From a virus (taxonomy: Duplodnaviria > Heunggongvirae > Uroviricota > Caudoviricetes): 64,000 nt of DNA. Under the pieces are notes generated by a model. It worked only from the letters and a program-made list of their open reading frames with translations, had not been told where the DNA came from and ran no database searches. The stretch lies in the IMG/VR virus record IMGVR_UViG_3300045988_154391; one strand, written 5' to 3'. A program made the position numbers and the translations under genes. Position 1 is the stretch's first letter. Each line of letters starts with the position of its first letter. Below are positions 57,624 through 63,520 of this stretch, piece by piece.

Positions 57624-57640
57624 ATATTTATTAGAGCAAT
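57624..57640 (-). promoter_or_regulatory. C1 operator upstream of the uhr-hrdC-dmt operon
   Basis: ATATTTATTAGAGCAAT, one mismatch. Confidence 0.75.
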
Positions 57641-59835: not shown

Positions 59836-59876
59836 TACCCTTCCTTCCAACCGGCTATGTTGGCCGGTTTATTCAA

Positions 59877-59985
59877 CTTATCCACAGCATAGATCCAATA
59901 AACAGATCCTAAAGAGAACCCAGGAAGATCCAAAGAAGATCCCGGATCGCTGTAAGCCGCGCCATTTCTGGCCTGAAATGGGATC
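59877..59985. other. Replication origin core: DnaA box plus cluster of Dam GATC sites
   Basis: TTATCCACA at 59877-59885; GATC at 59892, 59905, 59927, 59938, 59945 and 59982. Confidence 0.65.
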
Positions 59986-59989
59986 AACA

Positions 59990-60092
59990 TTGACTATACG
60001 CGATTTTATGTTGACTGTGCACGATTTATTGTTGACTGCACGCGATTTATTGTTGACTATACGCGACAGAAACATTGACTGTACGCGATTTT
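59990..60092 (+). repeat. Five direct iterons at ~21-bp periodicity upstream of repA
   Basis: TTGACT(A/G)T(A/G)CGCGATTT-type repeats starting at 59990, 60011, 60032, 60053 and 60075. Confidence 0.75.
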
Positions 60093-60168
60093 AGAGCCTG
60101 ACTATTCACAGTTGTTGATAACTGCAATCCAGATGACGCCAGGCCGCGACACATATGGAGAAACCACG

Positions 60169-61053
60169 ATGCCGGAAGAAAATAAAGGCTTCCTTAGCGT
60201 TGAAGAAGTTGCAGGAAATACAGGAGAAATCCACAGCCTGAAACCCAATAACAATAGCACTATACAACCCATCGCTTTGTTGCGCTTAGGTGTGTTTGTG
60301 CCAACCTTAAAATCTACCAATGTGGCACTACGTCGCGGATCGTCAGTTACTACAAACACAACGAACGCAACCGAAGAACTATCAAGCCTCAAAATTGTTG
60401 AGCAGGAAGGCTATGAGGGAATTGAAATACATGGTCCACGCCTGGATATGGATACTGATTTTAAGGTGTGGGTGGGCATAACCTCCGCGTTGTTTGACTA
60501 CGCACCTGATGATGACGGCATAATCACCCTGCCATTCTCCGAGTTTGCCGATCGATGCGGCTATCCACGTAAGCGCCTTTCAAAGGCGTTCCGTAAAAGT
60601 ATTGATGACTCTCTGACACGCATTCAGCAGACAGTTGTCAAATTCCGCTTCCCGGCGGCAAAAGGTCATCTCAATAACATTAACGTCAACTTGTTGGCAT
60701 ATAGCAGCCTGAATACCGAGCTTGATGTTATCGAGATCCAGCCGCAGAAACAGCTATCTGAACTTTACTATGTTGACTATAAGCGAATCCTGAAGCTGAA
60801 GATGCTGGATAAGCTCGGGCGCAAAGAGACGGCCAAGGTACTGTATACATTCTTTGAGGCTCTACCTGCCAACCCGGCACCTGTCAGCATTGAGCGCCTT
60901 AGAGCAAGGCTTAATCTCAAATCATCCGTTAGCGTGCAAAATAGCGTTATCAGAAAAGCCATGAAAGATTTGGAAGCTATTGAATATCTTAAATTTTCAG
61001 AGATAAAAAACGGCAGGAAAATCGGCTTCCAGATCCATAAGCGCAATCCATAA
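60169..61053 (+). CDS. repA: RepA replication initiator (iteron-binding)
   Basis: ATG at 60169 with GGAGAAA SD; shares blocks with P1 RepA as recalled (IQPIALLRLGVFVP, GPRLDMDTDFKVWVG, C-terminal RNP) but is clearly diverged. Confidence 0.8.
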   Translation: MPEENKGFLSVEEVAGNTGEIHSLKPNNNSTIQPIALLRLGVFVPTLKSTNVALRRGSSVTTNTTNATEELSSLKIVEQEGYEGIEIHGPRLDMDTDFKVWVGITSALFDYAPDDDGIITLPFSEFADRCGYPRKRLSKAFRKSIDDSLTRIQQTVVKFRFPAAKGHLNNINVNLLAYSSLNTELDVIEIQPQKQLSELYYVDYKRILKLKMLDKLGRKETAKVLYTFFEALPANPAPVSIERLRARLNLKSSVSVQNSVIRKAMKDLEAIEYLKFSEIKNGRKIGFQIHKRNP

Positions 61054-61317
61054 TATTGACTATATGCGATAGCGAGAAGTTGACTATAGGCGACATTCGT
61101 TGACGCTGGTGGATTTTTGCTGGCGTCAATATTCTGCAAGCTGCTATTGAGATGGCTTTTAGGGTCATTTCATCGCGTATAGTCAACGTTTCTCCCGACA
61201 ATATCTTACATAGTCGATTTTTGGTGGAGTTAAATCGACTACAGTCAACTTTTGACTGTAGTCACATCGCGCATAGTCAACTATTCACATTAACTTTCGC
61301 GCATAGTCAACATTTGC
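61052..61317. repeat. incA-like control locus: about eight iteron copies in both orientations downstream of repA
   Basis: TTGACTATATGCGAT, TTGACTATAGGCGAC, and inverted copies CGCGTATAGTCAAC, CTACAGTCAAC, GCGCATAGTCAAC (twice). Confidence 0.65.
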
Positions 61318-61345
61318 GCGGTTCTCATCAAGCAGTGGTATTGAT

Positions 61346-62155
61346 ATGCAAGAAGAGAAACAACACTACCTCTACGTTCTGGTGCCGGAGAACGGAGATA
61401 CTTTTAAAATCGGCATTTCATGTGGTCCATTGGCACGGTTTAAAGGGCTACAAGTGAATCCCGATTTTGCGCTTTCACGGGTCTATCGTGGTACGCGTTT
61501 GGCAATAGTTAATCTTGAGCGGGCTTTACACGCAACCTTTTTCCCCTGGAATGCGCCGTGGGAGAAAAGCGCCGGTGGCGGGCATACTGAATGGTTTACA
61601 CGAGAGTGTCTTGATAAGGTTTTGGCTCATATCGAATATCTAAATGATATGTGGGGAGGGATTCTCGAGCGGATTAAGTCGAATGATTTACTTCAGCGTC
61701 CAGTAGATGCTGCTCGCTCTTTCGAAAAAGAACTGGATGTTACTTCTATCGTGACTTTCAAAGATGACGCAGGAATGAGGGATGTGGCTTATGTCTCCAT
61801 ATCTGGCTATGAACCTGACGCGATCCGCGCTCAATGTGAATTGCTGAAAGCGATGTTTACGCTTCGGACTAAATATCCCTGGGAGACAGGGCGGGTGTGC
61901 TTCCCTATGGAAGAGTTAACCGCCACCATTGATTCCCAGCTTTACCACGATAATCCAGAGAAGTTTTTTAGCCTTTTAGCCGGTAATGGGCTTAACTGTG
62001 TGTCCGGACTGGGGCGAAGTAGAATCCAACATGCCTCGCTCTTCGGTCCCTTCTTTTACGATCGAAACGGGTGCTTTGAGGCTGAACTTCCGGCGCTTAC
62101 GCGTGCTATAGATACTATCGATTTCGAACGATTATTCGCAGCTCTTAACAAATAA
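61346..62155 (+). CDS. T5orf172/GIY-YIG-like domain protein (269 aa)
   Basis: N-terminal pattern YLYVLVPENGDTFKIGIS ... R ... LERALHATF ... GGHTEWF fits the T5orf172 signature; C-terminal ~170 aa uncharacterised. Confidence 0.6.
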   Translation: MQEEKQHYLYVLVPENGDTFKIGISCGPLARFKGLQVNPDFALSRVYRGTRLAIVNLERALHATFFPWNAPWEKSAGGGHTEWFTRECLDKVLAHIEYLNDMWGGILERIKSNDLLQRPVDAARSFEKELDVTSIVTFKDDAGMRDVAYVSISGYEPDAIRAQCELLKAMFTLRTKYPWETGRVCFPMEELTATIDSQLYHDNPEKFFSLLAGNGLNCVSGLGRSRIQHASLFGPFFYDRNGCFEAELPALTRAIDTIDFERLFAALNK

Positions 62156-62162
62156 CACTGAT

Positions 62163-62183
62163 GCCCCTGAACGGGGCTTTTTT
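62163..62183 (+). terminator. Intrinsic terminator after the T5orf172-like gene
   Basis: Stem GCCCC/GGGGC with loop TGAAC, followed by T6. Confidence 0.6.
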
Positions 62184-62323
62184 GTGCCCTCCTTGCAACT
62201 CTCTATCGTGCAAAATGAACCAAACATGCAGAGAATGCTATGTACAAGCATCTACGCATACATTATTATTTTATGCAGCATTTTTAATTAAATTCAAAAA
62301 TACAGCATAAAGGATGACTTTCG

Positions 62324-63520
62324 ATGAGTGATTCCAGCCAGCTTCACAAGGTTGCTCAAAGAGCAAACAGAATGCTCAATGTTCTGACTGAACAAGTACA
62401 GTTGCAAAAGGATGAGCTACACGCGAACGAGTTTTACCAGGTCTATGCGAAAGCGGCACTGGCAAAACTGCCTCTACTGACTCGAGCGAACGTTGACTAT
62501 GCCGTAAGTGAAATGGAAGAAAAGGGTTATGTTTTCGATAAACGCCCTGCTGGCTCTTCAATGAAATATGCGATGTCAATTCAGAACATCATTGACATAT
62601 ATGAACATCGCGGAGTGCCAAAATACCGGGATCGCTACAGCGAAGCGTATGTGATTTTCATCTCCAATCTTAAAGGCGGTGTGTCAAAAACTGTATCGAC
62701 GGTTTCTCTGGCGCATGCAATGCGTGCTCACCCTCATCTTCTGATGGAAGATTTAAGGATTCTGGTTATTGACCTTGATCCGCAATCTTCAGCAACGATG
62801 TTTTTAAGCCATAAACACTCTATTGGTATCGTAAACGCAACATCTGCACAGGCTATGTTGCAGAATGTAAGCCGTGAAGAGCTGTTAGAGGAGTTTATTG
62901 TTCCTTCTGTTGTACCTGGGGTTGACGTTATGCCTGCGTCGATTGACGATGCCTTTATTGCATCCGATTGGAGAGAGCTGTGCAATGAGCATCTACCGGG
63001 TCAGAACATCCATGCTGTCCTGAAAGAAAATGTGATTGATAAGCTGAAGAGCGATTATGACTTTATCCTCGTTGATAGTGGTCCTCACCTTGACGCCTTC
63101 CTGAAAAATGCTTTGGCCTCGGCCAATATACTGTTTACACCTCTGCCGCCAGCAACTGTCGATTTCCACTCATCGCTTAAATACGTTGCCCGCCTTCCTG
63201 AGTTGGTGAAACTCATTTCGGATGAAGGCTGCGAGTGCCAGCTTGCGACTAACATTGGTTTTATGTCCAAGTTGAGTAACAAGGCAGACCATAAGTATTG
63301 CCATAGCCTGGCTAAAGAAGTGTTCGGTGGGGATATGCTCGATGTCGTCCTCCCTCGCCTTGACGGTTTTGAACGTTGCGGCGAGTCTTTTGACACTGTT
63401 ATTTCAGCTAACCCGGCAACGTATGTTGGTAGTGCTGATGCATTGAAGAACGCGCGAATTGCCGCGGAAGATTTTGCTAAAGCAGTTTTTGACCGTATTG
63501 AATTTATCAGATCTAACTGA
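62324..63520 (+). CDS. parA: ParA partition ATPase
   Basis: 398-aa protein MSDSSQLHKVAQRANRMLNVLTEQVQLQKDELHANEFYQVYAKAALAKLP ... with deviant Walker A (SNLKGGVSKT); matches P1 ParA. Confidence 0.92.
   Translation: MSDSSQLHKVAQRANRMLNVLTEQVQLQKDELHANEFYQVYAKAALAKLPLLTRANVDYAVSEMEEKGYVFDKRPAGSSMKYAMSIQNIIDIYEHRGVPKYRDRYSEAYVIFISNLKGGVSKTVSTVSLAHAMRAHPHLLMEDLRILVIDLDPQSSATMFLSHKHSIGIVNATSAQAMLQNVSREELLEEFIVPSVVPGVDVMPASIDDAFIASDWRELCNEHLPGQNIHAVLKENVIDKLKSDYDFILVDSGPHLDAFLKNALASANILFTPLPPATVDFHSSLKYVARLPELVKLISDEGCECQLATNIGFMSKLSNKADHKYCHSLAKEVFGGDMLDVVLPRLDGFERCGESFDTVISANPATYVGSADALKNARIAAEDFAKAVFDRIEFIRSN

What the first reader, a model, noticed from the sequence alone, without database searches (positions are those of the whole stretch)
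61346..62183. Stand-alone T5orf172/GIY-YIG-like gene at the junction between the RepA replicon and parAB
A 269-aa gene with its own terminator sits between the incA-like iterons and the parA promoter. As far as I recall, P1 has only non-coding DNA there. Its N-terminus carries the T5orf172 pattern (YxYVL ... KIGIS ... R ... GGHTEWF), a nuclease-like domain; the C-terminal ~170 aa is uncharacterised. Its placement at a module seam next to a diverged replicon suggests a cargo gene acquired with the replicon swap, possibly a defence or plasmid-competition function.
Basis: partly seen in the sequence, partly recalled or inferred. Interest (0 to 1): 0.6.

Follow-up and report, generated by a model that had tools for sequence, protein, structure and literature searches.

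The report
Replicon-linked T5orf172 nuclease gene
A real 269-codon gene for a GIY-YIG-type (T5orf172) nuclease lies between the plasmid replication gene and the partition genes of this P1-like phage-plasmid; it travels with the swappable replication cassette, evolves fast and is often broken, and so looks like a selfish or competition nuclease, whose function nobody has tested.

Summary
ORF 61346-62155 (+, 269 aa) with terminator 62163-62183 passes Pfam T5orf172 (26.2 bits, cut-off 20) and keeps every core residue of that family. Canonical P1 has only a 172-bp spacer at this position.

The gene is not new as an ORF. It is in 412 of 5,426 complete E. coli genomes, where RefSeq calls it "GIY-YIG nuclease family protein". 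Two papers mention it only as an unknown gene.

What this analysis adds:
- Only four lineages of the full-length protein exist in the databases searched. All four sit 20-35 bp after the last inverted incA-type iteron and before parA of P1-like elements, across three iteron types and two par types.
- One lineage has a P1/IncY-like RepA, so this is not incidental cargo of one replicon swap.
- In two independent genome pairs the swapped cassette ends 63-84 bp after this gene's stop codon.
- Constraint is weak: dN/dS is 0.30, against 0.02 for repA and 0.001 for parA. Eight of 46 alleles are broken.
- The C-terminal ~165 aa is an acidic orphan domain that diverges fastest.

Best reading (confidence about 0.4): a homing-endonuclease-like nuclease that cuts rival P1-like genomes. 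Defence, replicon-accessory and relic readings remain open.

The parts
59973..62221 (.). Swappable replicon cassette: the segment not homologous to canonical P1. It holds the iterons, repA, the incA-like iterons, the nuclease gene and its terminator.
   Evidence: In blastn of the window against P1, 94.6% homology ends at 59972 and 99.3% homology resumes at 62222.
59988..60088 (+). Five direct iterons with core TTGACTATACGCGA at 21-22 bp spacing (origin side, incC-like).
60169..61053 (+). repA, a Rep3-type initiator of the p0111 type, 41-43% identical to P1 RepA. The mechanical ORF starts at TTG 60112.
   Evidence: Pfam Rep3_C 27 bits and Rep3_N 21.7 bits; annotation of RCS47; identity matrix
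61054..61316 (.). incA-like iteron array: two forward copies (61054-61069, 61078-61093) and four inverted copies (61171-61192, 61233-61254, 61265-61286, 61295-61316).
61346..62155 (+). The T5orf172/GIY-YIG nuclease gene (269 aa), intact in this window.
61346..61657 (+). N-terminal nuclease domain (residues 1-104) with Y10, K21-I-G23, R31, E58, H62, G79, E82 and F84.
61658..62152 (+). C-terminal orphan alpha/beta domain (residues 105-269), acidic (pI 5.1) and the fastest-evolving part of the protein.
   Evidence: No Pfam or PDB sequence hit. It is found only in the four lineages. pI. dN is 0.73, against 0.27 for the N-terminal domain.
62163..62183 (+). Intrinsic terminator of the nuclease gene.
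   Evidence: a comparable terminator follows the homologue in L006
62222..63520 (+). Right flank shared with P1 at 99.3% identity: Ppar (62241-62269) and parA (62324-63520).

Best explanation
The gene encodes a free-standing T5orf172-type (GIY-YIG superfamily) DNA endonuclease that belongs to the exchangeable plasmid-replicon cassette (iterons, repA, incA iterons, nuclease) of P1-like phage-plasmids. It behaves like a homing endonuclease or marker-exclusion gene.

Proposed mechanism:
1. In the plasmid-prophage state the gene is made at a low level. It has no promoter of its own, and transcription probably runs through the RepA-bound incA iterons.
2. The N-terminal domain cuts DNA.
3. The fast-evolving C-terminal domain chooses the target.
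4. The target lies in co-resident or superinfecting P1-like genomes that carry a different cassette at this locus.
5. The cut rival is either destroyed (exclusion) or repaired from the nuclease-carrying genome, which copies the whole cassette across. This would produce the replicon swaps whose right edge lies just past this gene.
6. Without rivals the gene is dispensable and decays.

Shown here: domain identity, intact catalytic motif, conserved position, cassette boundaries, weak constraint and pseudogenisation. Inferred: nuclease activity, the target, the expression route, and homing or exclusion.
For: 1. The catalytic core is intact. Pfam T5orf172 is above threshold in all four lineages. 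Y10, K21, G23, R31, E58, H62, G79, E82 and F84 are conserved in at least 93% of 144 relatives and are all present here. The predicted fold matches SLX1 and phage T5orf172 proteins, including Odn. In Odn the equivalent glutamate is needed for cleavage (PMC8263062).
2. The position is conserved. All four lineages lie between Rep3-type repA plus iterons and parA of P1-like elements. The start codon is 20-35 bp after the last inverted iteron in each, despite three different iteron sequences.
3. The gene sits at a recombination boundary. Between the window and P1, homology resumes 67 bp after the stop codon. L003 and L004 backbones are 94-98.6% identical but carry different cassettes, and their homology resumes 84 and 63 bp after the stop codon. 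The right flank of p0111-type elements is as close to P1 (mostly 99.0-99.6%) as to each other, whereas the left flank is differentiated.
4. The gene is dispensable and decays. In 45-46 natural alleles dN/dS is 0.30, against 0.02 for repA and 0.001 for parA. There are three independent nonsense sites (W68*, S112*, Q228* in SJ46) and one 1.76-kb insertion. Truncated or frameshifted products also form database clusters; P0003 has 229 members.
5. It diverges fast. Between the window and L003, dN is 0.51 for this gene (0.73 for the C-terminal domain), 0.13 for repA and 0.07 for parA.
6. There is a precedent. T5orf172 genes in ICP1 and other phages are inferred homing endonucleases that sit at boundaries of genetic exchange next to essential genes (PMC10448857).
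7. The nearest non-family relative, P0012, sits among HNH homing-endonuclease genes in a phage contig. Others lie directly after plasmid initiator genes: TrfA plus five iterons in L060, and an HTH_36 gene in L061.
Against: - The C-terminal domain is acidic (pI 5.1 in all four lineages, 5.4-5.6 for the whole protein) and has no recognisable DNA-binding family. To my knowledge, classical homing endonucleases carry basic DNA-binding domains.
- The putative winged-helix segment rests on a moderate model (pLDDT 74, five sequences).
- Within the p0111 type the gene is almost always present (391 of 404 PLSDB records). There is no clean plus/minus polymorphism on one replicon type, so recent homing is not demonstrated.
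- The long co-divergence with RepA could simply reflect vertical linkage.
- No target site is known, and no promoter was found.
- Recombination boundaries could be set by the limits of functional modules rather than by a nuclease.
- A dN/dS of 0.30 together with pseudogenes also fits any costly accessory gene.
Confidence: 0.4

Rival explanations
1. Anti-phage defence effector carried by the prophage-plasmid. A single-gene nuclease whose fast-evolving C-terminal domain senses an infecting phage component and releases the nuclease, in the manner of abortive infection or direct cleavage.
For: GIY-YIG nucleases do act in defence: SNIPE is an example, and its catalytic Glu is required (PMC13190303). 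An acidic, rapidly diverging, non-DNA-binding-looking C-terminal domain fits a protein sensor. Frequent loss-of-function alleles fit a costly defence gene. One relative, P0013, lies next to Mrr and WYL genes on a chromosome. The gene is outside C1-operator control, so it is plausibly expressed in lysogens.
Against: There is no hit to any of the 5,027 PADLOC models. The strict position inside the replicon cassette in four lineages is not a typical defence hotspot. The family is confined to P1-like elements among 5.8 billion protein clusters, whereas defence genes usually spread widely.
Confidence: 0.2
2. Non-essential accessory factor of the iteron replicon. It would act as a nuclease, nickase or DNA/protein binder on its own iteron-RepA complexes. 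Possible roles are resolving handcuffed or paired iteron arrays or branched intermediates, or tuning copy number.
For: The gene always directly follows the incA-type iterons, with its start codon 20-35 bp after the last one, and has no promoter of its own. Analogous initiator, iterons, T5orf172 order occurs in an unrelated TrfA replicon and after an HTH_36 gene. The top structural neighbours are the structure-specific nuclease SLX1. There are weak fold hints to Rep WH1 domains.
Against: P1, P7 and all IncY plasmids in PLSDB replicate without it. Nonsense and insertion alleles occur in complete, maintained plasmids, including SJ46. Its constraint is about 15 times weaker than repA's. Its C-terminal domain is only 31% identical between the window and L003, although their RepA proteins (83%) and iterons are nearly the same, so it does not co-evolve with its own RepA or iterons.
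Confidence: 0.13
3. Decaying relic: a formerly mobile nuclease gene that now has no function in E. coli P1-like plasmids and persists only through linkage to repA.
For: About 17% of sampled alleles are disrupted (8 of 46), dN/dS is far above that of its neighbours, and the ribosome-binding sites are weak.
Against: dN/dS of 0.30 is still well below 1. The full-length ORF and all catalytic residues persist in four lineages that have diverged to 27-44% identity with saturated dS. This requires long-term purifying selection.
Confidence: 0.1

Closest known systems
T5orf172-family putative homing endonucleases of vibriophage ICP1 and other phages (Barth, Dunham & Seed 2023, PMC10448857)
   Same: Same nuclease domain family. 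A free-standing intergenic gene next to essential genes, located at a boundary of genetic exchange. Variable and often frameshifted or truncated alleles. A two-part build, with the nuclease at one end and a specificity domain at the other.
   Different: Here the host is a temperate phage-plasmid and the neighbours are plasmid replication and partition genes. The C-terminal domain is none of the DNA-binding domains listed for those genes in the parts of the paper read here (CapR, DUF723, DUF4397, RepA_N); it is an acidic orphan domain. The gene is nearly fixed within one replicon type rather than sporadic.
Odn (ICP1 gp88), the origin-directed nuclease (PMC8263062)
   Same: A T5orf172 nuclease with a conserved catalytic Arg and Glu, in a conflict between mobile elements that centres on an iteron replicon. 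Odn is a structural neighbour of the N-terminal domain in BFVD.
   Different: Odn's specificity domain is recognisably a RepA_N domain copied from its target's initiator. Here neither hhalign (probability 0.2%) nor blastp finds similarity to any of the five RepA proteins. Only sub-threshold fold hints to Rep WH1 exist. In addition, this gene is encoded beside a replicon, not in a lytic phage that attacks a satellite.
Free-standing GIY-YIG homing endonucleases of T-even phages (I-TevI, Seg proteins); from general knowledge, not tested here
   Same: GIY-YIG superfamily catalytic domain, intergenic position, and marker exclusion or co-conversion of flanking DNA as the expected outcome.
   Different: A different subfamily (T5orf172, with K-I-G in place of Y-I-G). 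No basic DNA-binding domain with a zinc finger or helix-turn-helix. Homing is not demonstrated.
SNIPE, a membrane-bound GIY-YIG defence nuclease (PMC13190303)
   Same: A single-protein GIY-YIG nuclease whose non-nuclease part gives specificity.
   Different: No DUF4041 domain, no PADLOC hit and a different architecture. SNIPE is much larger, since its catalytic residue is E414.
SLX1 structure-specific endonuclease
   Different: The match covers the GIY-YIG core only, at 11-16% identity. There is no RING domain and no SLX4 partner.

Membership tests
T5orf172 (PF10544) / GIY-YIG superfamily | Profile match above the curated threshold | tested here: met
   26.2 bits against a cut-off of 20 over residues 8-85. 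The three other lineages score 25.1-27.8 bits. MUG113 is below its threshold in the window protein.
T5orf172 (PF10544) / GIY-YIG superfamily | Core motif residues: Tyr of the first strand, K-I-G of the second, catalytic Arg and catalytic Glu | tested here: met
   Y10, K21-I22-G23, R31 and E82 (plus E58, H62, G79, F84) are present. Each except I22 (88%) is conserved in at least 93% of 144 aligned relatives.
T5orf172 (PF10544) / GIY-YIG superfamily | GIY-YIG alpha/beta fold | tested here: met
T5orf172 (PF10544) / GIY-YIG superfamily | Metal-dependent DNA cleavage | not testable with these tools
   Requires purified protein and E82A/R31A mutants.
Free-standing homing endonuclease gene | Nuclease domain joined to a sequence-specific DNA-binding domain | tested here: inconclusive
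   The nuclease domain is present. The C-terminal domain matches no family, is acidic at pI 5.1, and shows only a predicted beta-alpha-alpha-alpha-beta-beta segment with sub-threshold winged-helix hits.
Free-standing homing endonuclease gene | Presence/absence polymorphism between otherwise homologous genomes, at an intergenic site beside conserved genes | tested here: inconclusive
   The gene is absent from P1 and P7-par IncY elements and present in p0111-type and three rare lineages. But absence always comes with a different or diverged cassette, and within the p0111 type the gene is nearly universal.
Free-standing homing endonuclease gene | Recurrent degeneration (stops, frameshifts, deletions) | tested here: met
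   Three nonsense sites and one insertion in 46 alleles. Truncated or frameshifted products in the databases are P0003, P0005, P0007, P0008 and P0010.
Free-standing homing endonuclease gene | Cleavage of the gene-less allele and copying of the gene into it | not testable with these tools
   Needs in-vitro cleavage mapping and mixed-infection or superinfection crosses.
Odn-like origin-directed nuclease | Specificity domain homologous to a replication initiator's DNA-binding domain | tested here: not met
Known anti-phage defence systems (PADLOC-DB 2.0) | Match to a model of a known or candidate defence protein | tested here: not met
   0 families at E <= 1.

The most novel reading that the evidence does not exclude
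These genes are a previously unrecognised class of replicon-linked 'incompatibility nucleases'. In this reading, each iteron-replicon cassette of P1-like phage-plasmids carries its own T5orf172 nuclease. Some unrelated plasmids, such as the TrfA-type replicon in L060, may do the same. The fast-evolving, possibly Rep-WH1-like C-terminal domain would direct the nuclease to the origin or initiator complex of rival replicons. Replicon identity would then be enforced, and replicon swaps driven, by nuclease attack rather than only by iteron titration.
Probability: 0.15. Interest if true: 0.75.

Novelty: new member of a known kind. Interest (0 to 1): 0.42.

Why it matters
P1-like phage-plasmids are common carriers of resistance and virulence genes in E. 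coli and Salmonella. They come in two main replicon types, IncY and p0111, and typing schemes rely on these types.

If this nuclease drives or polices the exchange of the replicon cassette, it would explain three things: why near-identical backbones carry different replicons, why the swap always ends at the same point, and how resident prophage-plasmids resist displacement by superinfecting relatives.

It would also extend the idea that nuclease genes sit at boundaries of genetic exchange from lytic phages to plasmid replicons. If instead the gene is an ordinary decaying selfish gene, it is still a useful marker of cassette boundaries but of limited wider interest.

Tried and rejected
- **Odn-like chimera** (C-terminal domain copied from a RepA): rejected at sequence level. 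hhalign gives probability 0.2% and blastp finds nothing. Only sub-threshold fold hints remain.
- **P1's 172-214 bp spacer as a remnant of the gene**: rejected. tblastn and short-word blastn give chance-level matches only.
- **Known defence system**: no PADLOC or NCBIfam hit.
- **C-terminal domain found elsewhere**: not found by an exhaustive HMMER search of 1.84 billion representatives, two profile word-index searches, Pfam on all four members, or a PDB sequence search.
- **Own sigma-70 promoter between repA and the ATG**: none at the scan threshold, and none convincing by eye.
- **C1 operator control**: the nearest operator is at 57624.
- **Structured RNA in the region**: only a chance-level Rfam hit at E 0.52.
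- **Foreign base composition**: the gene is 47.3% GC against 48.5% for the window, which is unremarkable.
- **P0009-type gene in curated collections**: PLSDB and INPHARED hold only the p0111-type allele.
- **General rule that relatives follow initiator genes**: true for 2 of about 8 informative contexts. Others are in a phage HEG cluster, a chromosomal Mrr/WYL island, or the accessory regions of conjugative plasmids. This is kept as a lead only.
- **Model and library limits**: the first AF2 run with 3 sequences was too poor to use (pLDDT 60.6). The afdb50 fold library was unavailable.
- **Truncated copy in pLR-46_1**: an IS1 artefact, not a natural recombinant.

Full report
**1. What is there.**
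The window is a P1-like phage-plasmid. The ORF at 61346-62155 (+, 269 aa, ATG start) is real. Upstream lie a Rep3-type repA (60169-61053; Pfam Rep3_C and Rep3_N) and an incA-like array of six iterons. The last iteron ends at 61316, 30 bp before the ATG. Downstream is a good intrinsic terminator at 62163-62183. After that come a Ppar-like promoter (62241-62269) and parA (62324-63520; HTH_54 plus AAA_31).

No sigma-70-like promoter was found on the + strand between repA and the ATG. The ribosome-binding region is weak. No C1 operator is nearby.

**2. Domain identity.**
- Pfam T5orf172 is above its gathering threshold (26.2 against 20 bits, residues 8-85).
- PHROGs has a dedicated full-length family of unknown function, phrog_2876, and a weaker hit to an 'endonuclease' family.
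- PADLOC and NCBIfam give nothing.
- In an alignment of 144 T5orf172 relatives, Y10, K21, G23, R31, E58, H62, G79, E82 and F84 are each at least 93% conserved. The window protein has all of them.
- An AlphaFold2 model built on five sequences (pLDDT 74.2) has two domains joined by a low-confidence linker at residues 117-126.
- In Odn, the glutamate equivalent to E82 is required for cleavage in vitro and in vivo (PMC8263062).

**3. The C-terminal ~165 residues.**
- They match no Pfam family and no PDB sequence.
- A full HMMER scan of 1.84 billion representatives, and two profile searches of 5.8 billion clusters, find this domain only in the family itself.
- The model shows a long helix followed by a beta-alpha-alpha-alpha-beta-beta segment (residues 157-231), which could be a winged helix.
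- Profile-profile and pairwise comparisons with five RepA proteins are negative.
- The domain is acidic (pI 5.1) in all four lineages, which argues against a classical DNA-binding module.

**4. How widespread is it.**
The gene is not new as an ORF.
- It is in at least 12 phage records (SJ46, RCS47, JL22, Ro157c2YLVW, phi456 and others).
- It is in about 400 PLSDB plasmids and in 412 of 5,426 complete E. coli genomes.
- RefSeq usually names it 'GIY-YIG nuclease family protein'.
- The pSvP1 paper notes '2 orfs inserted between repA and parA' (PMC6906374).
- No functional study turned up in the searches made.

**5. Family and position.**
Only four lineages of the full-length protein exist in the databases searched:

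| Lineage | Source | Locus |
|---|---|---|
| p0111-type allele (P0001 and the window) | E. coli and relatives | window |
| P0004 | sequencing-run assembly (Logan, ERR2144811) | L003 |
| P0009 | Salmonella enterica draft genome | L004/L005 |
| P0011 | faecal metagenome | L006 |

All four lie between a Rep3-type repA with iterons and parA of a P1-like element. The ATG is 20-35 bp after the last inverted iteron in each, although the three iteron sequences differ.

Pairwise amino-acid identities:

| Pair | RepA | Nuclease |
|---|---|---|
| window vs L003 | 83% | 44% |
| L004 vs P1 | 83% | P1 has no gene |
| L004 vs L006 | 43% | 40% |
| other pairs | 41-49% | 27-30% |

So an IncY-like replicon (L004) also carries the gene, and L006 combines it with a P7-type par. 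Among complete IncY plasmids, the P1-type has a 172-bp spacer and the P7-par type about 115 bp. Neither has a gene there. P1's spacer is not a remnant of the gene.

**6. Cassette boundaries.**
- Between the window and P1, homology ends at 59972, about 16 bp before the first iteron. It resumes at 62222, 67 bp after the stop codon.
- L003 and L004 have backbones that are 94-98.6% identical but entirely different cassettes. Their homology resumes 84 and 63 bp after the nuclease stop codon.
- The left part of oriR is shared by all types (window 59869-59990 is 77% identical to L004).
- The exchanged unit is therefore the iterons, repA, incA iterons and nuclease.
- Among 42 p0111-type elements, the right flank (Ppar-parA) is as close to P1 as to each other (mostly 99.0-99.6%). 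The left flank is differentiated from P1 (about 95-96.5%). Distances in the cassette correlate poorly with those in either flank (r = 0.33-0.34). This indicates free recombination at the nuclease-proximal edge.

**7. Selection.**

| Gene | dN/dS in 45-46 natural p0111-type alleles | dN, window vs L003 |
|---|---|---|
| repA | 0.02 | 0.13 |
| parA | 0.001 | 0.07 |
| nuclease | 0.30 | 0.51 (N-terminal 0.27, C-terminal 0.73) |

(dS is saturated in the window-L003 comparison.)

- The sample contains 25 different nuclease proteins, against 5 for repA and 2 for parA.
- Seven alleles carry premature stops at three independent sites: S112* in five, Q228* in SJ46, and W68* in one.
- One further allele has a 1.76-kb insertion.
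- Truncated or frameshifted products also form database clusters; P0003 has 229 members.
- The gene is therefore dispensable for plasmid maintenance. Yet it has been kept full-length, with an intact active site, in four deeply diverged lineages.

**8. Relatives outside the family (N-terminal domain only).**
- P0012 lies among HNH_3 homing-endonuclease genes in a phage-like contig.
- P0022 lies directly after a TrfA initiator gene and five 22-bp iterons.
- P0023 directly follows an HTH_36 gene, with a ParA-like gene and a second T5orf172 gene upstream.
- P0016, P0021 and a PLSDB plasmid are in mobile-element accessory regions.
- P0013 and P0025 are chromosomal. P0013 is next to Mrr and WYL genes.
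- The tie to replicons is a lead, not a rule.

**9. Interpretation.**
The best-supported reading is a homing-endonuclease-like, selfish or competitive nuclease tied to the replicon cassette. This matches the published picture of T5orf172 genes at boundaries of genetic exchange next to essential genes (PMC10448857).

The main weaknesses are:
- the acidic specificity domain, which cannot be recognised as any known type;
- the lack of a clean presence/absence polymorphism on a single replicon type;
- the absence of any known target.

Defence, replicon-accessory and relic readings cannot be excluded. The Odn-like version, with a Rep-derived targeting domain, failed its defining sequence test and survives only as a speculative fold-level hint.

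**10. Verdict.**
- The gene is an already annotated but uncharacterised member of a known kind, with a new domain partner and an unusual, conserved home inside a plasmid replicon cassette.
- Interest is moderate.

Noticed in passing
L003 and L004 (whole loci): Two P1-like elements are 94-98.6% identical over their backbones, one from a sequencing-run assembly (ERR2144811) and one from a Salmonella enterica draft genome. They carry completely different replicon cassettes: one p0111-like, the other IncY-like. This is a second, independent instance of the swap seen between the window and P1.
   Followed up: partly
L060:788-2758: An unrelated small AT-rich contig shows a TrfA-family initiator gene, then five 22-bp iterons (1701-1813), then a 275-aa T5orf172 gene. 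This is the same order as in the window. L061 has a T5orf172 gene directly after an HTH_36 gene, with a second T5orf172 gene before it and a ParA-like gene upstream.
   Followed up: partly
window 60773-60786 (and L003:7613-7626): A near-perfect iteron copy (TTGACTATAAGCGA) lies inside the repA coding sequence. It is conserved in the 83%-identical RepA gene of L003.
   Followed up: no
window 61100-61129: A short inverted repeat, TTGACGC...GCGTCAA, sits between the forward and the inverted incA-like iterons. A related direct repeat is at 61213-61233. Its role is unknown.
   Followed up: no
L001:3827-3998 (canonical P1): The P1-specific 172-bp spacer between incA iteron 1 and Ppar is open in one frame for 59 codons, ending just before the homology boundary, and has no start codon near its beginning. 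It is unrelated to the nuclease family. IncY plasmids with P7-type par have a different spacer of about 115 bp, so this slot is variable in general.
   Followed up: partly
window 59869-59990: The left part of oriR is rich in GATC and resembles the DnaA-box region of P1. It is conserved across replicon types (77% to L004, 94.6% to P1), while the iterons immediately to its right are type-specific.
   Followed up: no
window 60112 vs 60169: The mechanical repA ORF starts at TTG 60112 (313 aa). Annotated homologues (RCS47) start at the ATG at 60169 (294 aa).
   Followed up: no
window, whole: There are sixteen matches to the P1 C1-operator consensus (at most 3 mismatches), against 0.4 expected by chance. 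One is a perfect copy at 53778-53794, overlapped by a second site. None is in the replicon/par region.
   Followed up: no
NZ_AP027538.1 (L067:5001-5258): In a 231-kb cointegrate plasmid, IS1 has removed repA and the 5' two-thirds of the nuclease gene. Only its last 258 bp remain, next to an intact parAB.
   Followed up: yes
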